Sequence record: NC_041936.1
DNA length: 64,000 nt
Direction: 5' to 3' (one strand)
Source: Escherichia phage ECD7
Within the stretch, counting starts at the first letter, position 1. Every line of letters starts with the position of its first letter. Below, one piece after another: positions 7,535 through 59,484 of the stretch. The translations under genes and the position numbers were made by a program. Below the pieces are notes generated by a model that was given only the letters and a program-made list of their open reading frames with translations, was not told where the DNA came from and searched no databases.

Positions 7535-8164
7535 TCAAAGAATTTTAAGGAAACTGGATAGACCTGATAATGAATATACACCAGATTCCCCGCATTCGCA
7601 CTTGATCGGTACTGCCAGCGTGATTTGATTTCTTGTTAGCTCGTCGATCACTTCTTCCACTTTATCCGTGGTAAGCATATCCAGCACGCGGTCAAAGTCC
7701 TGTGCGTTCAGGTCGTCTATATTGAATTGCTGATCGCCGATCACGATATATTCGATACATGCAATTACCATCTGCATAATATCAACATCTTCTGTAAACT
7801 TAGGTTGACGAAATTTTATTTTTACTTGCCCTAAGTCCAGAATATACGGTTCAACTTCTGGTATCTGTGTGCGTGAAACATCAAGAGAGTATACTTTCTC
7901 TTTATTGCATACACCACACACCCAAGTAGCATCAATTTTCATCTTATTGAGGCTGTGACACCATAAGAGAAGAAAAATATATTCTGCTTCGCATTTCTCT
8001 AGCTCTAATGCATTGATCCCCGTACATTCATGTATGATCTCTATAACAACCTCTGACAGCTTGCCAGTCTCTTTTGCTGCTACCAGTTTTTGAAATTCGC
8101 CGAAGGTGAAAGCACGGGCGTGTATCAACTTTTCGCCTAATTGGATCTTGAAAAAGTATTGCAT
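7535..8164 (-). CDS. 26: baseplate hub subunit gp26
   Basis: 209 aa, position between gp25 and gp51 as in T4. Confidence 0.75.
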   Translation of the reverse strand: MQYFFKIQLGEKLIHARAFTFGEFQKLVAAKETGKLSEVVIEIIHECTGINALELEKCEAEYIFLLLWCHSLNKMKIDATWVCGVCNKEKVYSLDVSRTQIPEVEPYILDLGQVKIKFRQPKFTEDVDIMQMVIACIEYIVIGDQQFNIDDLNAQDFDRVLDMLTTDKVEEVIDELTRNQITLAVPIKCECGESGVYSLSGLSSFLKIL

Positions 8165-17798: not shown

Positions 17799-17840
17799 TT
17801 TATATCCTCTAGTTGATAACCTATAAACCTATATTTATGA

Positions 17841-17862
17841 AAAAGGGGCTTAACGCCCCCTT
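17841..17862 (-). terminator. terminator-like hairpin upstream of alt
   Basis: AGGGGCTTAACGCCCC hairpin flanked by A- and T-runs, possibly bidirectional. Confidence 0.45.
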
Positions 17863-17865
17863 TTA

Positions 17866-18077
17866 TTATAATGCACCATCAAGCAATTGCTCTAAGGTGT
17901 ATCCTGAATAGTCTTTTTCAATCAGGATATATTTTCCTACTCGTTTAATCCAACCGCGCATTTCAACGTATTCTGCGTAGTTGATGGTGCGAGTTGTTCC
18001 ATCTTCCAGTAATGCAGTACCGATTTCGTTGATGCGGTCATAAGTTACGTCGGTAATGATGATTTCGATGTTAGCCA
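17866..18077 (-). CDS. hypothetical small early protein
   Basis: start set to ATG (MANIEI..) directly downstream of promoter cassette; track ORF extends into the promoter. Confidence 0.5.
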
Positions 18078-18143
18078 TTTGATACTCATTAGTAGTTCGT
18101 TTCGGTATGTGTGCATTATAGGGGATCACCGATCCCTTGTCAA
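18078..18143 (-). promoter_or_regulatory. early promoter cassette (PeSL-like) 1
   Basis: minus strand: TTGACA, 17-bp spacer containing inverted repeat GGGATCGGTGATCCCC, TATAAT, conserved leader ..CCGAAACGAAC.., then ATG. Confidence 0.6.
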
Positions 18144-18151
18144 CAACTTTT

Positions 18152-18670
18152 TTAGTTATTTTTTAATTGCTCATCTTGCAATAGGGCAATCACATGCTGG
18201 CGATGTTCTTCCGATTGAGGCACACCGAAAAAGTTTGTTTTGTAGAAATACTCTAATCGGTCTTCTCGTGTGCTCTCTTCCATCATGATCGCGGGTAGTC
18301 CGAGATTTCGGAAACGTCGCTTTTCTGCTGGCGTAAAATCACTGTAATACAGCATATAATCATCATTACCAGCAATGCTAAACTCATCCTTCATGAAAGA
18401 GAATATTGCGTTTAAACGCTGTTTACCGTCCACGATTTCGATTTCATAGCGAGAGCCATCATCAATCTTAGCCATTGCGATAGCACCAACCGGAAAATCA
18501 TTAATCAGGTTTTCGATAAACATACGTTTGTTTTCTGTGTCCCATACCAAAGGACGCTGATAATCTGGGTTCATGTTGATATAGCCATCTTCTAACCATG
18601 CTTCGTAAACAGAGATGACAAAGTTTTTAGTATTGGTATAGTAACGGCGTTTAGGCGTTAAACGGTTCAT
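18152..18670 (-). CDS. DUF262 (ParB/Srx-like nuclease/NTPase domain) protein
   Basis: motifs NPDYQRPLVW and DGKQRL are the DUF262 signature; start set to ATG (MNRLT..) with AGGAG SD, 1 nt after upstream stop. Confidence 0.6.
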   Translation of the reverse strand: MNRLTPKRRYYTNTKNFVISVYEAWLEDGYINMNPDYQRPLVWDTENKRMFIENLINDFPVGAIAMAKIDDGSRYEIEIVDGKQRLNAIFSFMKDEFSIAGNDDYMLYYSDFTPAEKRRFRNLGLPAIMMEESTREDRLEYFYKTNFFGVPQSEEHRQHVIALLQDEQLKNN

Positions 18671-18671
18671 A

Positions 18672-19001
18672 TTATAGTCTCCTGAATGGATCATCACGTA
18701 AATCAATATCTTTTAAGAACTCATCCCATGAATGGCGGATATTGTTCTTAATTCTCCAGATAAGCGCAGGGATTGAACGCTCTCCCATCTGGAAGTAAGG
18801 ATCATATGATCCGTATGCCCAATATGCTACTACAATTCCACAATCAGCGCAATAGTATTCTATTTCACTTGCTGGCGACCAAAGTCCATCAATATGATCA
18901 GTGATCTTGCTTTCGATGTTATGGCTATGACAATCAGGGCAACGGATGCAATGACCTTGTTTATCGTAATTTGACGTTAGAGAATACTTAAACAATCTCA
19001 T
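18672..19001 (-). CDS. zinc-ribbon-like hypothetical protein
   Basis: 109 aa, CIRCPDC...CADCG cysteine pairs. Confidence 0.5.
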   Translation of the reverse strand: MRLFKYSLTSNYDKQGHCIRCPDCHSHNIESKITDHIDGLWSPASEIEYYCADCGIVVAYWAYGSYDPYFQMGERSIPALIWRIKNNIRHSWDEFLKDIDLRDDPFRRL

Positions 19002-19717
19002 TATAGATCCTTATTGGCTTCAAATACTGCCTTTGCGAATCCTCGCGGCGTAAGTGACCTGATAGTCTTTGTTCTGGTTCCTTTCCCGCCTAGCTTAGAA
19101 TGCTGTTTGCTGTACCCTTTATTAATCTGCAACGGTTTCTTTTCTGGCATTATAAAGCCTTGTCCGGTCCATAAGCAAGTCTTTTTCGGGTACATATCAC
19201 GGGCGGCAATATACTCAGGAAACGTAGGATGCTTATCATCTTCCGGCAAATAACCGCCATATTCCCACGGATGGAACATGTAATCAGGCTTACGCCACAT
19301 ACTAGAGATAACGCTTACAGGATTCTCTATCATATAGGGAACTCCTAGCCATTCACCCAAATAAGCGGTTATTTTAGCTGCCCGTACATCATGAACTTGA
19401 ATCAATGGTCCTTGTTCTCGTTTCTTTCGTTCAAAGTGTGCAGCGCCACTAACAGCTAAATTGGTGCACGGTGGGAATGCAAATATAATATCCGGTTTCC
19501 CCCATTCAAGGTCCATTGCTCTTTCCAGCCAGTTCAAATCAATCCAGGTGTTTACATAGGTAATGTTTGGATGTTCAAATCTGGTATTATACTTTTTGTA
19601 TGTACCGTGGTCGGCGTCATCCGCATTAAAGCAGACTACCTTATGACCTGCTTTAGCCCATTCTAGCCCCATTATCCCCGATCCGTCAAAGTTGCAGAAT
19701 ATTAATTTTTGTTTCAT
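19001..19717 (-). CDS. compact C5-cytosine methyltransferase-like protein
   Basis: 238 aa; FCNFDGSGIMG (motif I-like FxGxG), DIIFAFPPCTNLAVSG (motif IV PC-like), MIENPVS (motif VI ENV-like); no obvious target-recognition domain. Confidence 0.55.
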   Translation of the reverse strand: MKQKLIFCNFDGSGIMGLEWAKAGHKVVCFNADDADHGTYKKYNTRFEHPNITYVNTWIDLNWLERAMDLEWGKPDIIFAFPPCTNLAVSGAAHFERKKREQGPLIQVHDVRAAKITAYLGEWLGVPYMIENPVSVISSMWRKPDYMFHPWEYGGYLPEDDKHPTFPEYIAARDMYPKKTCLWTGQGFIMPEKKPLQINKGYSKQHSKLGGKGTRTKTIRSLTPRGFAKAVFEANKDL

Positions 19718-19959
19718 ATACGACCCTTTAACCCAGCACAGATTTTAGTCGGTTCTTTACCGTGCCACATTAAGTAAAGTCCGTTAGTGCGGCCTTGTTT
19801 TGTATATGATTCTTTTCTGATCTTCTTATAGTATCGTGCTTCCTCAGCCGATTGTTTAGAATGCCGATCATAAAGGAAGAGGAACAAAGGCCAACCATTA
19901 GCGGCCTTAATGCAGTTATTAAGAAATTCCTTATTGCGTTTAATTAATTTTCTTTTCAC
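19714..19959 (-). CDS. hypothetical basic protein
   Basis: 81-aa ORF, overlapping stop/start with neighbours in the same operon. Confidence 0.5.
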   Translation of the reverse strand: MKRKLIKRNKEFLNNCIKAANGWPLFLFLYDRHSKQSAEEARYYKKIRKESYTKQGRTNGLYLMWHGKEPTKICAGLKGRI

Positions 19960-20207
19960 GCTGCCCCCATTGGTTTGATAGTAACAGAATCTAAAAGACC
20001 TTTGTTAGCCAGTTCGCGGCAAGTTTTCAGATCCGTAACTTCCCAGCCAGCCGCAATCAGGTTATCAATGAGGCTGTTAGCAACTTCCTCGCTCATGAAA
20101 GAGCACTGTTTGCCGATGGTGTAGCGCACACGCTGTAATTTCAGTTTACGGAAGCCTTTAACGTTCAGGTCTTTAGCGATTTTCTTTGCGGTTTCGATGT
20201 TAGCCAT
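19956..20207 (-). CDS. hypothetical small early protein
   Basis: 83 aa, first gene after promoter cassette at 20208-20276. Confidence 0.5.
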   Translation of the reverse strand: MANIETAKKIAKDLNVKGFRKLKLQRVRYTIGKQCSFMSEEVANSLIDNLIAAGWEVTDLKTCRELANKGLLDSVTIKPMGAA

Positions 20208-20276
20208 TGTTTGATTCTCCTAAGTGGTATCTCGTCTTGATGGTTGTATTGTAGGGGAGTTATCCTCCCCTGTCAA
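20208..20276 (-). promoter_or_regulatory. early promoter cassette (PeSL-like) 2
   Basis: TTGACA, 17-bp spacer with palindrome GGGGAGGATAACTCCCC, TACAAT, leader, GGAGAATCAAACAATG. Confidence 0.55.
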
Positions 20277-20290
20277 CACTTTTTATAAAA

Positions 20291-20458
20291 TTATTTGTTA
20301 ATTTCTGGTGCGTTGCTCGGATAGTAACCTTCTTTAACGCCCAGGTATTTCGCAACCATCCCTACAATCTTCTGTGCTACTACAATGTCAAATTTCAGAT
20401 AATCTTCGCCGTGGGTTTCAATGATATATGCTTCACATGCTGCTTTAGTCTCGAACAT
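20291..20458 (-). CDS. hypothetical 55-aa protein (copy 1 of duplicated gene)
   Basis: read by eye: MFETKAACEAYIIETHGEDYLKFDIVVAQKIVGMVAKYLGVKEGYYPSNAPEINK; near-identical paralog at 23549-23716; own promoter cassette. Confidence 0.5.
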   Translation of the reverse strand: MFETKAACEAYIIETHGEDYLKFDIVVAQKIVGMVAKYLGVKEGYYPSNAPEINK

Positions 20459-20520
20459 TTTGATTCTCCTATTTCGTTTCGGTATGGGTGTATTATAGGG
20501 GATCTCCCGATCCCCGTCAA
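20459..20520 (-). promoter_or_regulatory. early promoter cassette (PeSL-like) 3
   Basis: TTGACG, spacer GGGGATCGGGAGATCCCC, TATAAT, leader CCGAAACGAAAT, GGAGAATCAAAATG. Confidence 0.6.
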
Positions 20521-20534
20521 CAACTTTTTTAAAA

Positions 20535-20816
20535 TTATTCGTGATTAGTTTCGATGTTGTGCATTTTGCACCAGTTCAGCCAATCGCCCAGATCTTGATA
20601 GTTGATGCTTTTATCTGCTGCCATCGTTTTTGTCTTGATACCCATATGTGCGTTATGAGTAAGCATTTTTACAGTGAACTCAATTTTATCGCCTTTAGCT
20701 TTAACATCAACCAGTTTGGTCCACTGGCTACCAGCGCCGCGAATGTTCATGCCAACGATGTTTCCGATGTATGCTTCTTTGTTTTTCAGGATTTCGGTTG
20801 CTTTGATGAATTTCAT
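20535..20816 (-). CDS. hypothetical small early protein
   Basis: 93 aa, promoter cassette upstream. Confidence 0.55.
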   Translation of the reverse strand: MKFIKATEILKNKEAYIGNIVGMNIRGAGSQWTKLVDVKAKGDKIEFTVKMLTHNAHMGIKTKTMAADKSINYQDLGDWLNWCKMHNIETNHE

Positions 20817-20878
20817 TTTTGATTCTCCAGTTCGTTTCGGTATGGGTGTATTATGCTATGTTCTTACTTTGGTGTCAA
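20817..20878 (-). promoter_or_regulatory. early promoter cassette 4
   Basis: TTGACA, 17 bp, CATAAT, conserved leader and GGAGAATCAAAA ATG; spacer not palindromic here. Confidence 0.55.
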
Positions 20879-20885
20879 CAACTTT

Positions 20886-21155
20886 TTAGATATTTTCAGA
20901 AATAAATTTTAAAACTTGACGTAAATGTTTCTCATCTTTGATAGTCGCCGGAAGTTCTTCTTTTACTTCCTGTGCAAGATAGATATTTCCGTTCCAAGTG
21001 AAAGATCCGTCTTCGTTTACGCGATAGCTGAACATCCACTCGCAATCATTTTCGATTTCATATACACACAGAAGGGTGTAATCGTTAAAGCTATTGATTT
21101 CAAGGTCGAAGCCGTGACGTTTTGCAAAGTTGGTAGTGGTTTTAGTCAGTGCCAT
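20886..21155 (-). CDS. hypothetical small early protein
   Basis: 89 aa, promoter cassette upstream. Confidence 0.55.
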   Translation of the reverse strand: MALTKTTTNFAKRHGFDLEINSFNDYTLLCVYEIENDCEWMFSYRVNEDGSFTWNGNIYLAQEVKEELPATIKDEKHLRQVLKFISENI

Positions 21156-21224
21156 TGTTTGATTCTCCTAAGTGGTATCTAGTTTCGATGGGTGTATTAT
21201 GCTATACACAGGATCTGGTGTCAA
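21156..21224 (-). promoter_or_regulatory. early promoter cassette 5
   Basis: TTGACA, 17 bp, CATAAT, leader CATCGAAAC.., GGAGAATCAAACAATG. Confidence 0.55.
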
Positions 21225-21248
21225 TGCCTTTTTTAAAATTTTATGCAA

Positions 21249-21274
21249 TAAAAAAGCCGACGCTATGGTCGGCT
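21249..21274 (-). terminator. rho-independent terminator
   Basis: AGCCGACCATAGCGTCGGCT hairpin followed by TTTTTTATT on minus strand. Confidence 0.6.
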
Positions 21275-21281
21275 AATAAAA

Positions 21282-21590
21282 TCATTTAGACAAATAATCA
21301 TTCTGTGCAATCCGGTCGGCGTATGCTGGTGTTATGTCAATCGCCAGCACTTTAACGCGTGCTTTCTTGCGACCTGGGTTTTCTCGTAACCAGTGCTCAT
21401 GACCGTGAATATTTTTATACTGCGATGCTTCTTCGAAGGTACGGATCGGACCTGGGTAATCAGCGTAAAGGATCTCTAGATCTTCGGTGATGTAAAAATA
21501 TACATCGTAATTGCTGTTCTCTAGCTTAAGCAGAGACTTTCGGAACATTGGGAGATTTTCGCGGGTAAATTCAAAGATATTATCTTTCAT
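21282..21590 (-). CDS. HxHW-family small protein (paralog 1)
   Basis: 102 aa; ..YFYITEDLEILY..HGHEHW..VKVLAIDI..; terminator downstream. Confidence 0.55.
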   Translation of the reverse strand: MKDNIFEFTRENLPMFRKSLLKLENSNYDVYFYITEDLEILYADYPGPIRTFEEASQYKNIHGHEHWLRENPGRKKARVKVLAIDITPAYADRIAQNDYLSK

Positions 21591-21613
21591 AGTATTATCC
21601 TCAATAGTTGGAT

Positions 21614-21636
21614 GAAAAGGGGCGTTAACGCCCCCA
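21614..21636 (-). terminator. rho-independent terminator
   Basis: GGGGCGTTAACGCCCC hairpin then TTTTCAT on minus strand. Confidence 0.5.
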
Positions 21637-21640
21637 TATA

Positions 21641-21928
21641 TTAAAACAGTCCTTCCTGTACACCGTAGTAGAGTTCGTCGCTGATAATTTCATTAATGCG
21701 ACGGTGTGCATATTCCTGATTTGCGAAGTTGTCAGCAAGTTCTACTTTAGTTTCGCCGTCATGAGTCCATTTAGTGATAACTTTACCATCTGCAAATTTG
21801 AAGTTGAACTCTTTAGCTACTGCATCGCGTACCAGACGTGCAAACTTATTGTTGCGGATTGCATTGTCGGTTTCGTGTGCAGCGTGAGCAAATTTGTTAA
21901 CTTTCAGAGTGATAGTGATGTATGCCAT
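21641..21928 (-). CDS. hypothetical small early protein (VAKEFN family)
   Basis: 95 aa; shares VAKEFNFK block with ORF 24934-25245; promoter cassette upstream, terminator downstream. Confidence 0.55.
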   Translation of the reverse strand: MAYITITLKVNKFAHAAHETDNAIRNNKFARLVRDAVAKEFNFKFADGKVITKWTHDGETKVELADNFANQEYAHRRINEIISDELYYGVQEGLF

Positions 21929-22003
21929 AATTTGATTCTCCTAGTTAGAAAGTGTATCTCGTTTCGATGGGGATATTATGCTATACCCCCGATCTGGTGT
22001 CAA
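21929..22003 (-). promoter_or_regulatory. early promoter cassette 6
   Basis: TTGACA, 17 bp, CATAAT, leader ..CATCGAAACGAGATAC.., GGAGAATCAAATTATG. Confidence 0.55.
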
Positions 22004-22009
22004 CACTTT

Positions 22010-22288
22010 TTATAAAATAATTTTTTGATATTTTTCTATGATGTTCGTGTAAGTCACATCAACCGCTAGCACCGTTGCTTCGAATCCACCGTTTAGCCAA
22101 TGGCTATGATCATGGTCGTGAAAGAAACCTAGTCCAGTACGAAGACCTTCTTTATATTCTGCGCGTACATTCAGTTTGTCGTCGATAAACAGATAAAACC
22201 ATGAATTTTTACTAGGATTGATGATACAACCTTTCAGATTAGGGAGAATATCACGACTAAGAATAAATTTATCACCTACTTTGAACAT
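22010..22288 (-). CDS. HxHW-family small protein (paralog 2)
   Basis: start set to ATG (MFKVGDK..) with GAGGA SD; ..FYLFIDDKLNV..HDHSHW..TVLAVDV.. Confidence 0.55.
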   Translation of the reverse strand: MFKVGDKFILSRDILPNLKGCIINPSKNSWFYLFIDDKLNVRAEYKEGLRTGLGFFHDHDHSHWLNGGFEATVLAVDVTYTNIIEKYQKIIL

Positions 22289-22292
22289 AATA

Positions 22293-22613
22293 TTAGTCCT
22301 CACTTATAAGGTCAAACCAATTGTTTTTCGCATAATGCTTAATGCGTGCTTGATCTGCTTCCGCTGGTGATAGATTCCATGCAACCACTACAACTTCTGA
22401 CGCATCGTCATCAGTTTCTGATACCCAATGATTGTGATTCATACAGTTATTTGCTATCGAGTGAGCAAATGATTTCATCACTGGAGACGTATAATCATAG
22501 TAACGGATTTTCAGATTTTCATCAACATACAAATAGATCGTATAAGGTTTATATTCAGTAACCAGTAACAGACAGTTACGCAATTCTGGGAAAATCTTTT
22601 TAGTTAATTTCAT
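22293..22613 (-). CDS. HxHW-family small protein (paralog 3)
   Basis: 106 aa; ..YLYVDENLKIRY..NHNHW.. Confidence 0.5.
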   Translation of the reverse strand: MKLTKKIFPELRNCLLLVTEYKPYTIYLYVDENLKIRYYDYTSPVMKSFAHSIANNCMNHNHWVSETDDDASEVVVVAWNLSPAEADQARIKHYAKNNWFDLISED

Positions 22614-22815
22614 ATTCTAGTTCTCCGTAATACACAGTAATCCATTTTTCTTCATACTTTGTATCTTTCCAGCACACAACCCCGTTTACTGTGCAATCTT
22701 TGGAATTGACGAATGATTCATATTGTTCTGCATCTTCCATCATTTCATGAGCGGTCTTTTCATCGAATATATCGCAGATCGCTTTATATGCTCGATAATC
22801 TTTAAATTTGCTCAT
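22600..22815 (-). CDS. hypothetical small protein (MSKFKDY tandem paralog a)
   Basis: start set to ATG MSKFKDYRAYK; paralogous to next ORF. Confidence 0.5.
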   Translation of the reverse strand: MSKFKDYRAYKAICDIFDEKTAHEMMEDAEQYESFVNSKDCTVNGVVCWKDTKYEEKWITVYYGELEYEIN

Positions 22816-22817
22816 AA

Positions 22818-23027
22818 TTAACACCACTCAAGAGTTTTTGAAAACACATCTATCCATTGTTGAGTATATGCGGTTTCTTTCCATGATACAATACCAGTCG
22901 AATAATGGTTTTTGTTTCCAGAAAAGGACGGGCATTTTGATGCATCTTCCATCATCTTTTCGGCGAACTCTGGTGCGTATACTCGCAAGATCTGTTGATA
23001 TGCTTTGTAGTCTTTAAATTTGCTCAT
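22818..23027 (-). CDS. hypothetical small protein (MSKFKDY tandem paralog b)
   Basis: 69 aa MSKFKDYKAYQQ...; tandem duplicate of 22600-22815. Confidence 0.5.
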   Translation of the reverse strand: MSKFKDYKAYQQILRVYAPEFAEKMMEDASKCPSFSGNKNHYSTGIVSWKETAYTQQWIDVFSKTLEWC

Positions 23028-23292
23028 AATCGTTAACTACCTTATCAGCTTCTTTTATTGTTTTTACATCAACTGCGATAATACGTAAAGGTTCGTCGAA
23101 GGTCCACCAATGATCGTGAATATCAGCTTGTGATTTATCACCAAAGGAATCACGAATATCATTTTTACATTTATAGCTAATGTGACCGTTATAGTCAACA
23201 TAAAGGTAATTATCGAAAATCGGCGTTTTTAAGATCATACCGAAAAATCTTTCTTTGTGTGTCTTATCCAGCGTTGCAGTAATTCGCATCAT
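23014..23292 (-). CDS. HxHW-family small protein (paralog 4)
   Basis: 92 aa; ..YLYVDYNGHISY..HDHWW..RIIAVDV.. Confidence 0.55.
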   Translation of the reverse strand: MMRITATLDKTHKERFFGMILKTPIFDNYLYVDYNGHISYKCKNDIRDSFGDKSQADIHDHWWTFDEPLRIIAVDVKTIKEADKVVNDYEQI

Positions 23293-23304
23293 AATATATT
23301 CCTC

Positions 23305-23484
23305 TTAGAAAGGGATGGTCATTTCTTGAGCTTGTACATTCTCGTTAGGATTAAACTTCATCCAACCGATATTGTCTACCAGCATATACACATTTTTATC
23401 ATATCCTACGTGAGTAGTCAACACTAAATGTGCTTTACCTTCAACGATGATTTCCATGTACTTCTGAACTTCGATAGCTTTCAT
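23305..23484 (-). CDS. hypothetical 59-aa protein
   Basis: read by eye (MKAIEVQKYMEII...), ATG directly after promoter cassette; under 60 aa so absent from track. Confidence 0.45.
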   Translation of the reverse strand: MKAIEVQKYMEIIVEGKAHLVLTTHVGYDKNVYMLVDNIGWMKFNPNENVQAQEMTIPF

Positions 23485-23545
23485 TTTGATTCTCCGTTTG
23501 TTGTCTTGATGGGAGTATCTTACTACTCCCTTTAATCATTGTCAA
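23485..23545 (-). promoter_or_regulatory. early promoter cassette (PeSL-like) 7
   Basis: TTGACA, spacer then inverted repeat GGGAGTAGTAAGATACTCCC overlapping a TAAGAT -10, leader, GGAGAATCAAAATG. Confidence 0.5.
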
Positions 23546-23548
23546 CGA

Positions 23549-23716
23549 TTATTTGTTAATTTCCGGTGCGTTGCTTGGATAGTAACCTTCTTTAACACCC
23601 AGATATTTTGCAACCATTCCGGTGATCTTCTGTGCCACTACGATATCGAATTTCAGGTAGTCTTCACCGTGGGTTGCTACAATGTATGCTTCGCATTCTG
23701 CTTTAGTCTGGAACAT
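23549..23716 (-). CDS. hypothetical 55-aa protein (copy 2 of duplicated gene)
   Basis: MFQTKAECEAYIVATHGEDYLKFDIVVAQKITGMVAKYLGVKEGYYPSNAPEINK; roughly 85-90 percent nt identity by eye to 20291-20458. Confidence 0.5.
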   Translation of the reverse strand: MFQTKAECEAYIVATHGEDYLKFDIVVAQKITGMVAKYLGVKEGYYPSNAPEINK

Positions 23717-23778
23717 TTTGATTCTCCTTTATCTCGTTGGTATGTGTGCATTATAGGGGATCACCGATCCCCTGTCAA
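23717..23778 (-). promoter_or_regulatory. early promoter cassette (PeSL-like) 8
   Basis: TTGACA, GGGGATCGGTGATCCCC, TATAAT, leader, GGAGAATCAAAATG; duplicated with cassette 3 together with its gene. Confidence 0.6.
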
Positions 23779-23783
23779 CAACT

Positions 23784-24079
23784 TTATAATGCTTTATATG
23801 CGTATTTCATAAATTTGTCTGCCACTTCATTGGCATGTTCAGATTCTACGCCTGATTCGAGAACAATAGCTAGGTCGGTTTCGTCATTCCCGCCGTACCA
23901 ATGATTTGATGTTCGATTTTTTTCAATTGGAAATTGGTCACTTTTATCTGTGCGACAAAATACATCTAAATGCTCGTCGATGTAAAAGATCCAATCTTCA
24001 TAAAGAATAACGGTATTAGCCAGATTTTTATTGCCTTCAACGAAAGGTTCGGCTACAAACAAATTAGTATGTTCCATAG
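23784..24079 (-). CDS. HxHW-family small protein (paralog 5)
   Basis: start set to ATG MEHTNLFV.. (SD GAGGAAAT); ..ILYEDWIFYIDEHLDV..SNHW..LAIVLE. Confidence 0.5.
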
Positions 24080-24093
24080 TAATTTCCTCAAAA

Positions 24094-24285
24094 TTATACA
24101 GCTTCGTAAACTTCCCAATGTCCAACACCAGCACGCTTAACGAAAAGGTTTTCTTTGATGTTATTCATAAACGTCTGGATGGATTTAATGCGGTTTGAAG
24201 GTTTCCATTCTTCGTTGGCATTGCGTCGATACATCATAACATTACCAGTTCGCTTATATTCAGCAACCATTTTAAGACCACACAT
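24094..24285 (-). CDS. hypothetical small protein
   Basis: 63-aa ORF in same transcription unit. Confidence 0.45.
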   Translation of the reverse strand: MCGLKMVAEYKRTGNVMMYRRNANEEWKPSNRIKSIQTFMNNIKENLFVKRAGVGHWEVYEAV

Positions 24286-24342: not shown

Positions 24343-24663
24343 TCACACAAAATGGCGTGTCAATGCTTCTTTTGCGGTTCCGCTAAGACTTTCGATCTCG
24401 CCTGGCATAACATCAACCGCCAGAACTTCTACAACATCCTCGGACCCTAACCAGTGAGTATGGCCTTTGTAGAACTTGATAACCAGACTACCTTCCTCGT
24501 CCCATTTAACGCTATCGCTAGCCCACCACACATCACCGTCGATAAAGTTGATGTAAAGCACACTACGCAACATTGAATTAATTACTTTCAATACTGCGCC
24601 TTTCATCTCTTCCACGGTATGGTCTTCCATTTTGAAGACCATACCTACCTGAACTTTTGCCAT
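24343..24663 (-). CDS. HxHW-family small protein (paralog 6)
   Basis: 106 aa; ..LYINFIDGDVWW..KGHTHWLGSEDVVEVLAVDV.. Confidence 0.55.
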   Translation of the reverse strand: MAKVQVGMVFKMEDHTVEEMKGAVLKVINSMLRSVLYINFIDGDVWWASDSVKWDEEGSLVIKFYKGHTHWLGSEDVVEVLAVDVMPGEIESLSGTAKEALTRHFV

Positions 24664-24860: not shown

Positions 24861-24924
24861 GATTGATTCTCCTAGTTCGTTTCGGTATGTGTGTAGTATA
24901 GGGGATCTCCCGATCCCCTGTCAA
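24861..24924 (-). promoter_or_regulatory. early promoter cassette (PeSL-like) 9
   Basis: TTGACA, GGGGATCGGGAGATCCCC, TATACT, leader ..CCGAAACGAAC.., GGAGAATCAATCATG. Confidence 0.6.
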
Positions 24925-24933
24925 CAACTTTTT

Positions 24934-59258: not shown

Positions 59259-59414
59259 TTAAATTTCTTCTACAGTAAAGTCTTCAATGTTGTTGTGCTC
59301 GGAGAACGTTGCCAGACCAGCATTCCATGCATCATCCTCAGAGAAGAATACACCGTAACGTTCATATCCTTTAGCGCCTTCAAATTTAACCATTAATTTG
59401 TGAGTATGTTTCAT
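59259..59414 (-). CDS. hypothetical small early protein
   Basis: start set to ATG MKHTHKL.. downstream of promoter cassette. Confidence 0.45.
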   Translation of the reverse strand: MKHTHKLMVKFEGAKGYERYGVFFSEDDAWNAGLATFSEHNNIEDFTVEEI

Positions 59415-59473
59415 TTTGATTCTCCTTCGTTGTCTTGATGGGTTTAGTATAGGGGATCGCCGATCCCCTGTCA
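59415..59473 (-). promoter_or_regulatory. early promoter cassette (PeSL-like) 18
   Basis: TTGACA, GGGGATCGGCGATCCCC, TATACT, leader, GGAGAATCAAAATG. Confidence 0.6.
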
Positions 59474-59484
59474 ACAACTATTTT

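What the first reader, a model, noticed from the sequence alone, without database searches (positions are those of the whole stretch)
20291..23778. Recent duplication of a gene-plus-promoter module 3.2 kb apart
The 55-aa ORF with its upstream promoter cassette at 20291-20520 is repeated at 23549-23778 with roughly 85-90 percent nucleotide identity by eye (proteins differ at about 5 positions). The two copies bracket the HxHW paralog cluster, so they could mediate deletion or amplification of the intervening block by homologous recombination.
Basis: seen in the sequence. Interest (0 to 1): 0.45.

Follow-up and report, generated by a model that had tools for sequence, protein, structure and literature searches.

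The report
Old duplicated promoter-gene cassette in phage
Two copies of a small early gene with its own strong promoter sit 3.26 kb apart in an RB49-like coliphage; the duplication is ancient, not recent, but related phage genomes show that the copies do recombine, twice deleting the block between them, which is an ordinary case of the known PeSL cassette shuffling.

Summary
The repeat is real. Window 20290-20527 and 23548-23785 (genes on the minus strand) match at 85.5% (E = 3e-73), from just upstream of the -35 box to the stop codon of a 55-aa ORF; the proteins differ at exactly 5 residues. The window is a Krischvirus (RB49-like T4-type coliphage). The copies are orthologues of RB49 ORF191 (A) and ORF205 (B). 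Each is a "PeSL + ORFan" cassette (promoter-early stem-loop, Arbiol et al. 2010), in the hyperplastic region that paper studied.

"Recent" is wrong. Synonymous sites are near saturation (dS about 1.0, dN/dS 0.05), and paralogue pS (0.52) is 5-6 times orthologue pS across the genus (0.08-0.10). 50 of 57 Krischvirus records carry both copies.

The recombination idea is supported. Phages Cognac and FL04 have one chimeric copy joining B's upstream flank to A's downstream flank, so exactly one repeat period is missing. Their switch points and flanking haplotypes differ, which points to two independent deletions. Five copies in two-copy genomes carry clustered conversion tracts (p <= 0.001). Five records lack copy A through other deletions; in JK32 and UPWr_E1 the junction is a chimeric PeSL. 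No amplification was seen.

Only 4 of the 6 HxHW paralogues lie between the copies. The protein's function is unknown. This is a new instance of a known mechanism, of modest interest.

The parts
20291..20458 (-). Copy A coding sequence: 55-aa ORF, orthologue of RB49 ORF191 / phi1 ORF191 (PHROG 8009, function unknown).
   Evidence: ORF list; PHROG match E = 7e-38; 98-100% identical to RB49p191 and phi1p191.
20459..20527 (-). PeSL of copy A: AT-rich tract, -35 TTGACG (20515-20520), stem-loop GGGGATC-GGGA-GATCCCC (20498-20515), -10 TATAAT (20492-20497), Shine-Dalgarno AGGAG, then the ATG.
   Evidence: Pattern and promoter scans; stem-loop fold; layout matches the PeSL description in PMC2839356.
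23549..23716 (-). Copy B coding sequence: 55-aa ORF, orthologue of RB49 ORF205 / phi1 ORF205.
23717..23785 (-). PeSL of copy B: -35 TTGACA (23773-23778), stem-loop GGGGATC-GGT-GATCCCC (23756-23772), -10 TATAAT (23750-23755), a 12/12 sigma-70 consensus match. It is the counterpart of PeSL206/205.
   Evidence: A wild-type clone of PeSL206/205 gave about 13,000 Miller units in a lacZ fusion (PMC2839356).
20528..23547 (-). Intervening block of ten small early ORFs of unknown function (orthologues of RB49 ORF204 to ORF193). It includes four HxHW paralogues, a tandem pair of phrog_8471 genes, and internal PeSLs at 20850-20878, 21196-21224 and 21975-22003. The block plus one repeat copy (3258 bp) is absent from phages Cognac and FL04.
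20208..20290 (-). PeSL downstream of copy A, driving the ORF190 orthologue (promoter 20248-20276, stem-loop GGGGAG..CTCCCC). It is the partner in the PeSL x PeSL exchange that removes copy A alone in JK32 and UPWr_E1.
23485..23548 (-). PeSL-like element downstream of copy B (TTGACA-N17-TAAGAT with stem-loop GGGAGTA..TACTCCC). The A/B similarity ends here.
24863..24931 (-). PeSL upstream of the ORF209 orthologue. It is 94% identical to copy A's PeSL, which shows that the promoter part belongs to a dispersed family.
   Evidence: (family D4).
18093..18150 (-). PeSL that is 88% identical to copy A's PeSL. It is the partner of the 2.3-kb deletion (window 20459..18154) seen in phage MIZ4.

Best explanation
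The two segments are ancient paralogous 'PeSL + ORFan' cassettes in a hyperplastic, early-transcribed region of a Krischvirus (RB49-like T4-type phage), between the DNA ligase gene (gp30) and alt. Each unit is self-contained. [quoted passage not shown] Both genes are kept by purifying selection. Because they form a 238-bp direct repeat of about 85% identity, the phage's general recombination system occasionally pairs them ectopically. This gives short gene-conversion tracts between A and B. More rarely it gives a crossover that deletes the 3,258-bp repeat period, leaving one chimeric cassette; the reciprocal product would be a 3.26-kb circle. Shown here: the anatomy, the age of the duplication, the purifying selection, the two deletion genomes and the conversion tracts. 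Shown by others: the promoter activity of the copy B cassette, and circle formation by PeSL exchange in this region. Inferred: the enzymes involved (the T4-type UvsX/UvsY and gp46/47 pathway), the origin of the duplication by re-insertion of a cassette at another PeSL, and the existence of a 3.26-kb circle.
For: Anatomy: the repeat runs from the -35 box to the stop codon and ends at the next PeSL. Identity of the locus: the window is 93-98% identical to Krischvirus genomes, with copy A = ORF191 and copy B = ORF205. [quoted passage not shown] Age and selection: dS 1.0 and dN/dS 0.047; paralogue pS 0.52 against orthologue pS 0.08-0.10; 50 of 57 records have two copies; A and B are each other's nearest relatives compared with outgroups. 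Deletion: in Cognac and FL04 the sequence runs from B's upstream flank through one copy into A's downstream flank. Their diagnostic-site strings are B x10, a x22, B x3 (Cognac) and B x1, a x34 (FL04). Only these 2 of 57 records span the junction, and all other records break at the repeat ends. The upstream flanks of the two are 89% identical to each other, while Cognac's is 99.5% identical to two-copy JEP8. Conversion: runs of 5-9 consecutive foreign-type sites in PTE-Eco09 A and B, Skers A, JSE A and kvi A, each with permutation p <= 0.001. Cassette-level gain or loss: JK32 and UPWr_E1 lack copy A exactly and have a chimeric PeSL at the junction.
Against: The longest perfectly identical runs between A and B are only 20, 18 and 16 nt, so this is a poor substrate, and the event is rare in the sample (2 of 57 records). 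No tandem amplification was found. Because Skers copy A already carries a B-type 5'UTR, the exact crossover position in Cognac is ambiguous. Raw reads for Cognac and FL04 were not available, so a misassembly cannot be formally excluded. No circle and no recombination event was observed directly for this pair. The function of the 55-aa protein is unknown: there is no Pfam match, and the AlphaFold model has low confidence (pLDDT 68) and shows only two helices.
Confidence: 0.85

Rival explanations
1. This is the reader's version: a recent segmental duplication of a gene-plus-promoter module, with too little time since for the copies to diverge much.
For: Overall nucleotide identity of 85% and only 5 amino-acid differences look recent at first sight.
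Against: 19 of the 25 coding differences are at third codon positions. pS is 0.56, dS about 1.0 and dN/dS 0.047. Paralogue divergence is 5-6 times orthologue divergence across the genus. Both copies are present, at the same relative positions, in RB49, phi1, JSE, GEC-3S and about 46 other records.
Confidence: 0.02
2. The two copies did not arise by duplication within this lineage. Instead they were acquired separately: a diverged allele from another phage was inserted at a second PeSL, for example through a PeSL mini-circle during co-infection.
For: The repeat unit has exactly the boundaries of a PeSL + ORF cassette. Cassette A is gained or lost as a unit in JK32 and UPWr_E1. Homologues exist in unrelated siphoviruses (Swiduovirus, Skatevirus) and on a contig with a different gene context, so the gene does move between genomes.
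Against: A and B are closer to each other (90% aa) than to any outside homologue found (82% or less). No donor lineage with an intermediate allele was found in 5.8 billion proteins, where only 4 clusters matched. This rival concerns only the origin of the two copies; it does not change what they do now.
Confidence: 0.2
3. The single-copy layout of Cognac and FL04 is ancestral, and the two-copy layout arose by insertion of the 3.26-kb block.
For: PeSL exchanges are proposed to be reversible (PMC2839356). A circle carrying the block plus one cassette could integrate by homology.
Against: The single copies are mosaics of present-day B-type and A-type alleles. Cognac's flank is 99.5% identical to that of a two-copy genome, whereas A and B differ at about half of their synonymous sites. 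The two single-copy genomes have different junctions and different haplotypes. Even under this reading the repeats would still be the site of exchange.
Confidence: 0.05
4. The deletions and mosaics are artefacts of short-read assembly across similar repeats.
For: Repeats are a classic cause of collapsed assemblies, and no reads were examined.
Against: The copies share no exact run longer than 20 nt, so collapse is unlikely with the k-mer sizes assemblers usually use (my own knowledge). The same deletion occurs in two genomes from different records, with different junctions and flanks. Conversion tracts occur in five copies from four independently deposited genomes.
Confidence: 0.04

Closest known systems
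PeSL (promoter-early stem-loop) + ORFan cassettes of RB49/phi1-type phages (Arbiol, Comeau, Kutateladze, Adamia, Krisch 2010, PMC2839356; Comeau et al. 2014, PMC4122927)
   Same: It is the same phage genus and the same hyperplastic region. The element order is the same: AT-rich tract, -35 box, G/C stem-loop, -10 box, Shine-Dalgarno site, ATG. Copy B's cassette is the counterpart of the tested PeSL206/205, and copy A lay inside the published mini-circle H. The chimeric PeSL junctions seen here (JK32, UPWr_E1, MIZ4) switch in the zone reported there, between the -10 box and the ATG.
   Different: In the published cases the shared sequence is only the roughly 70-100-nt PeSL, flanking unrelated ORFs. 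Here the ORF is duplicated as well, so the homology is 238 nt. The exchanges include gene conversion inside the coding sequence and a larger (3.26 kb, ten-ORF) deletion. Neither the ORF191/ORF205 paralogy nor conversion between the two is mentioned in the main text of the paper; its supplement could not be read.
Deletions between short direct repeats in non-essential regions of phage T4 (for example the deletion series of Mosig et al. 1998, cited in PMC2839356)
   Same: Loss of several small non-essential early ORFs from a hyperplastic region by exchange between short similar sequences.
   Different: Those repeats are much shorter motifs. Here the repeat is a complete gene-plus-promoter unit, and the events are natural polymorphisms among isolates rather than laboratory mutants.
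Integron gene cassettes and phage 'morons' (the comparisons made by Arbiol et al.)
   Same: Small self-contained units (a gene with its own expression signals) that are gained and lost at defined intergenic sites.
   Different: No integrase or attC-type site is involved. Exchange appears to rely on general homologous recombination between the promoter cassettes or, here, between whole paralogous cassettes.

Membership tests
PeSL (promoter-early stem-loop) cassette | Sigma-70 consensus -35 and -10 hexamers at 17-nt spacing in an intergenic position, oriented with the downstream gene. | tested here: met
   Copy A has TTGACG-N17-TATAAT (11/12) and copy B has TTGACA-N17-TATAAT (12/12), both on the minus strand directly upstream of the ORFs.
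PeSL (promoter-early stem-loop) cassette | [quoted passage not shown] | tested here: met
   GGGGATC-loop-GATCCCC lies between the hexamers in both copies, and the predicted 7-8-bp stem is present in the MFE and centroid folds. The z-score against shuffles is only -0.6 (A) and -2.5 (B), because the flanks are AT-rich.
PeSL (promoter-early stem-loop) cassette | An AT-rich tract upstream of the -35 box that contains the stop codon of the upstream gene, and a Shine-Dalgarno site plus start codon at the 3' end. | tested here: met
   Read directly from the sequence: TAATTTTAAAAAAGTTGTTGAC ... AGGAGAATCAAAATG.
PeSL (promoter-early stem-loop) cassette | Repeated many times in the genome, mostly in hyperplastic regions and upstream of ORFans. 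| tested here: met
   Nine matches of 11-12/12, all on the minus strand and all intergenic, lie between 18.1 and 25.3 kb. The pattern gives 27 hits in the window against 4.8 expected. Related copies are at 18093, 24863, 25273 and 59412.
PeSL (promoter-early stem-loop) cassette | Promoter and terminator/attenuator activity. | not testable with these tools
   Promoter activity was shown by others for PeSL206/205, the counterpart of copy B's cassette (about 13,000 Miller units; PMC2839356). Terminator activity was shown only for PeSL211/210. Nothing has been measured for copy A's cassette.
PeSL (promoter-early stem-loop) cassette | Acts as a site of recombination that produces indels between related phages. 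| tested here: met
   Chimeric PeSL junctions are found in JK32 and UPWr_E1 (copy A lost) and in MIZ4 (2.3 kb lost). The B/A chimeric cassette in Cognac and FL04 has its switch inside the PeSL or the Shine-Dalgarno-to-ATG zone.
Recent segmental duplication | Synonymous divergence between the copies no greater than between orthologues of closely related genomes. | tested here: not met
   pS is 0.52 between paralogues against 0.08-0.10 between orthologues; dS is about 1.0.

The most novel reading that the evidence does not exclude
The two paralogous cassettes could be more than accidental homology. They could be kept as the 'bookends' of an excisable 3.26-kb super-cassette of ten early ORFans, including four HxHW paralogues, which leaves and re-enters genomes as a circle and so moves as a unit between co-infecting Krischviruses. 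Under this reading, the central coding region that resists conversion would mark a functional split between the A and B proteins. The evidence does not exclude this, but it shows only loss of the block, never its transfer or a circle.
Probability: 0.07. Interest if true: 0.55.

Novelty: new member of a known kind. Interest (0 to 1): 0.3.

Why it matters
This finding adds population-level evidence to the PeSL shuffling model. When the gene next to a PeSL is duplicated as well, the extended homology supports gene conversion and multi-gene deletion in nature. At least two independent natural phages have lost a ten-gene early block, including four of six HxHW paralogues, and were still isolated as viable phages. 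So that block is dispensable on their isolation hosts. For genome annotators it is a caution: 85% nucleotide identity in a short, strongly constrained gene can hide a saturated synonymous divergence. Beyond that it is an expected consequence of a published mechanism, not a new kind of system.

Tried and rejected
The function of the 55-aa protein could not be established. Pfam gave no hit. PHROGs gave only family 8009, of unknown function. The 5.8-billion-protein search returned only 4 clusters, all unnamed. AlphaFold2 on a 5-sequence alignment gave pLDDT 67.6 and a plain two-helix hairpin, so I did not run a fold search, because matches to such a model would be meaningless.

The genomic context of the divergent homologue P0003 is unrelated and did not help to date the duplication. 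IMG/VR gave only one contig; it has copy B only and a different deletion. The ten block proteins gave no Pfam family above the curated cut-off and only unknown-function PHROGs.

Literature searches for Krischvirus + PeSL, and for gene conversion in RB49, found nothing beyond the two PeSL papers. The supplement of Arbiol 2010 is not held as text.

I first suspected that relatives with a longer matched span carried a 1.4-kb insertion between the copies. JEP8 has the same spacing as the window (3258 nt). Spacing does vary in others (RB49 4326, G2494 3793, JSE 3479) because of extra cassettes such as ORF192.

I considered and rejected these readings: a tandem or transposon-type repeat (no transposase and no terminal inverted repeats), chance similarity (E = 3e-73), and similarity confined to the promoter (the coding part is 85% identical).
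Full report
**1. The observation**

The genes in this part of the window are on the minus strand.
- Copy A is the ORF at 20291-20458 and copy B is the ORF at 23549-23716; each encodes 55 aa.
- The repeat finder reports 20290-20527 against 23548-23785, at 84% ungapped identity over 238 nt and a spacing of 3258 nt.
- A local alignment shows that similarity starts at AAAGTTGTTGAC (the -35 region) and ends at the TAA stop codon. Beyond the stop, each copy runs into a different promoter-like element.
- A blastn of copy A against the whole window gives copy B at 85.5% over 241 columns, E = 3e-73, and no third full-length copy.
- The coding part is 85.1% identical, and the proteins differ at exactly 5 positions.

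**2. What the window is**

The region 19500-24500 matches 57 phage records at 90-99% identity, all RB49-like T4-type coliphages of the genus Krischvirus. In RB49 and phi1 numbering:
- copy A is ORF191 and copy B is ORF205;
- the genes between them are ORF204 down to ORF193;
- ORF206-210, an HNH endonuclease gene (ORF212) and the DNA ligase gene (gp30) lie upstream of B;
- ORF190, ORF189.1, a Dcm-type methyltransferase and alt lie downstream of A.

**3. The promoter cassette is a PeSL**

Each copy is preceded by these elements in order: an AT-rich tract that holds the upstream gene's stop codon, TTGACG or TTGACA, a GGGGATC-loop-GATCCCC hairpin, TATAAT, AGGAG and the ATG. This is the "promoter-early stem-loop" (PeSL) described for phi1 and RB49 by Arbiol et al. 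2010 (PMC2839356).
- That paper cloned PeSL206/205, the counterpart of copy B's cassette, and measured about 13,000 Miller units from a wild-type clone.
- Its inverse-PCR mini-circle "H" contained ORFs 191-194, so it included copy A. [quoted passage not shown]
- In the window, nine near-perfect promoter matches, all on the minus strand and all intergenic, lie between 18.1 and 25.3 kb.
- Copy A's PeSL is 94% identical to the PeSL at 24863-24931, which drives an unrelated gene. That is closer than it is to copy B's PeSL.

So the promoter part belongs to a dispersed family. What is specific to this pair is the duplicated coding sequence.

**4. The duplication is old**

Of the 25 coding differences, 19 are at third codon positions. 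Nei-Gojobori estimates are pS 0.56, dS about 1.0, dN 0.047 and dN/dS 0.047. Across 13 A copies and 14 B copies from 15 relatives plus the window:

| Comparison | Mean pS |
|---|---|
| A against A (orthologues) | 0.079 |
| B against B (orthologues) | 0.101 |
| A against B (paralogues) | 0.52 |

- A tblastn search finds two copies in 50 of 57 Krischvirus records and three copies in none.
- A and B are each other's closest relatives (90% aa). A divergent homologue (P0003) is 82% and 78% identical to A and B, and 51-aa homologues in the siphoviruses Swiduovirus and Skatevirus are 68-72% identical.

The duplication therefore predates the sampled radiation of the genus, and both copies are under strong purifying selection. 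"Recent" is refuted.

**5. The copies do recombine: deletion**

Seven Krischvirus records have one copy. In Cognac and FL04 the single gene sits between B's upstream neighbours (the ORF206-208 orthologues) and A's downstream neighbours (ORF190, then ORF189.1).
- At the nucleotide level the alignment to the window runs from the B flank through the copy to 23548. Independently, it runs from 20527 or 20529 through the same copy into the A flank. So exactly one repeat period (3258 bp) is missing.
- At 35 sites that distinguish A from B across the population, Cognac reads B x10 (promoter and 5'UTR), a x22 (coding), B x3. FL04 reads B x1, a x34.
- The switch therefore lies in the Shine-Dalgarno-to-ATG-to-codon-3 stretch in Cognac and at or near the -35 box in FL04.
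- The upstream flanks of the two phages are only 89% identical to each other. Cognac's flank is 99.5% identical to two-copy JEP8, and FL04's nearest relative is G2494 at 95%.
- Searching all phage records with the Cognac junction shows that only these two span it in one piece. Every other genome's match breaks at query position 429-433 or 670, which are the two ends of the repeat.

The simplest reading is two independent deletions by exchange between B and A. One caveat: Skers copy A already carries a B-type 5'UTR, so the Cognac crossover could lie further upstream if its parent was similar.

**6. The copies do recombine: gene conversion**

In two-copy genomes, foreign-type states occur in uninterrupted runs:

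| Copy | Run of foreign-type sites | Location |
|---|---|---|
| PTE-Eco09 A | 9 B-type | 5'UTR plus the first codons |
| PTE-Eco09 B | 6 A-type | mid-coding |
| Skers A | 5 B-type | 5'UTR |
| JSE A | 5 B-type | promoter spacer |
| kvi A | 5 B-type | 3' coding |

Permuting the site order gives p <= 0.001 for each run. This lowers the within-genome divergence (PTE-Eco09 pS 0.39, kvi 0.45). Parallel point mutation to exactly the paralogue's state at adjacent sites is not a credible alternative.

**7. Cassette-level gain and loss**

- JK32 and UPWr_E1 lack copy A alone. The junction is a chimeric PeSL: its 5' part (through the -10 box) is the PeSL upstream of A, and its 3' part is the PeSL downstream of A.
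- MIZ4 lacks window 20459..18154, joined at two PeSLs.
- PTE-Eco09 lacks the ORF206-209 orthologues, so copy B directly follows the ORF210 orthologue.
- An IMG/VR contig has copy B only and a deletion (22087..20119) that is not at PeSLs.
- The A-B spacing ranges from 3256 to 4326 nt among genomes, because of extra cassettes such as ORF192 in RB49.

**8. Mechanism**

Shown here or by others:
- a self-contained early expression unit, duplicated long ago;
- both copies conserved;
- ectopic exchange between them in nature.

Inferred:
- The exchanges are made by the phage's general recombination machinery. T4-type phages recombine at very high rates through UvsX/UvsY and gp46/47 (my own knowledge of T4 biology, not tested here).
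- The original duplication arose by re-insertion of an excised cassette at another PeSL. This fits the unit's boundaries, which run from the start of one PeSL to the start of the next, but it is not proven.
- The reciprocal product of the deletion is a 3.26-kb circle, analogous to the published 0.4-1.4-kb mini-circles.

The longest perfectly matching runs between A and B are 20, 18 and 16 nt. This explains why crossovers are rare (2 of 57 records) and why the Cognac switch interval contains the 18-nt run AGGAGAATCAAAATGTTC.

**9. The block and the protein**

- The ten ORFs between the copies have no Pfam family above cut-off and only unknown-function PHROGs.
- The HxHW proteins are a true paralogue family with shared motifs YLYIDE...HxHW...VLAVDV.
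- The 55-aa protein is PHROG 8009 of unknown function and is rare in databases (4 clusters). It is predicted, at low confidence, to be two helices with a disordered, invariant C-terminal tail KEGYYPSNAPEINK.

My best guess is a small early host-interaction protein, but nothing here tests that.

**10. Comparison with the known, and verdict**

Every sequence-level defining feature of a PeSL cassette that could be tested here is met. Promoter activity is published for copy B's counterpart. The deletion and conversion events are what the PeSL shuffling model predicts once the neighbouring ORF is also duplicated. I found no paper that notes the ORF191/ORF205 paralogy, the Cognac/FL04 deletion or the conversion tracts. 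So this is a new, well-documented instance of a known kind, of modest interest.

Noticed in passing
window 21282-21590, 22010-22303, 22293-22613, 23014-23292, 23784-24134, 24343-24663 (all minus strand): Six paralogous proteins of about 92-116 aa share the motifs YLYIDE..L.I.Y, an invariant H-W (HxHW in five of them) and VLAVDV. They map to phrog_9345, 17255 and 15972, with no Pfam match. Cognac and FL04 lack four of the six. The conserved His/Trp motif hints at metal or ligand binding, but the function is unknown.
   Followed up: partly
window 22600-22827 and 22818-23027 (minus strand): A tandem pair of paralogous small genes (75 and 69 aa, both phrog_8471, both with the N-terminal motif MSKFKDY.AY), about 70% nucleotide identity over 97 nt. 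This is a second and probably also old duplication inside the block.
   Followed up: no
window 24863-24931 against 20459-20527; also 18093-18150 and 59412-59479: PeSLs that drive unrelated genes are up to 94% identical to copy A's PeSL, which is closer than the PeSLs of the two paralogous cassettes are to each other. This suggests that the promoter cassettes are homogenised or exchanged independently of the genes they drive.
   Followed up: partly
L018 (IMGVR_UViG_3300045988_033703) 7613-7628; window 22087 and 20119: A metagenomic Krischvirus contig has copy B only, and a 1.97-kb deletion whose ends lie inside two ORFs (the ORF199 and ORF190 orthologues) with a 16-nt overlap, not at PeSLs. It is either an illegitimate or microhomology deletion, or an assembly artefact.
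   Followed up: no
L015 (phage PTE-Eco09) 3334-3884: Copy B follows the ORF210 orthologue directly; the four genes that normally lie upstream (ORF206-209) are missing. The same genome has conversion tracts in both copies, so this locus has been especially active in that lineage.
   Followed up: partly
L016 (Escherichia phage swi2) 2501-2656; L017 (Salmonella phage SeSz-2) 2501-2656: 51-aa homologues (70-72% identical) of the 55-aa protein occur in 45-48-kb siphoviruses (Swiduovirus, Skatevirus). They sit next to the large terminase gene and have no PeSL-type palindromic promoter. So this small ORFan has moved between unrelated phage groups.
   Followed up: partly
window 17837-17871 and 21612-21646: A 35-nt direct repeat (83% identical) containing a GGGGC..TTAACGCCCC hairpin followed by T-rich sequence. 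These are terminator-like elements (annotated as terminators at the equivalent positions in GEC-3S and G2494) and are distinct from the PeSLs.
   Followed up: no
window 19001-19717 (minus strand): A Dcm-type cytosine-5 DNA methyltransferase gene lies just downstream of copy A (annotated as DNA methyltransferase or Dcm in relatives). MIZ4 has lost it together with copy A in a PeSL-to-PeSL deletion, so it too is dispensable in some lineages.
   Followed up: no
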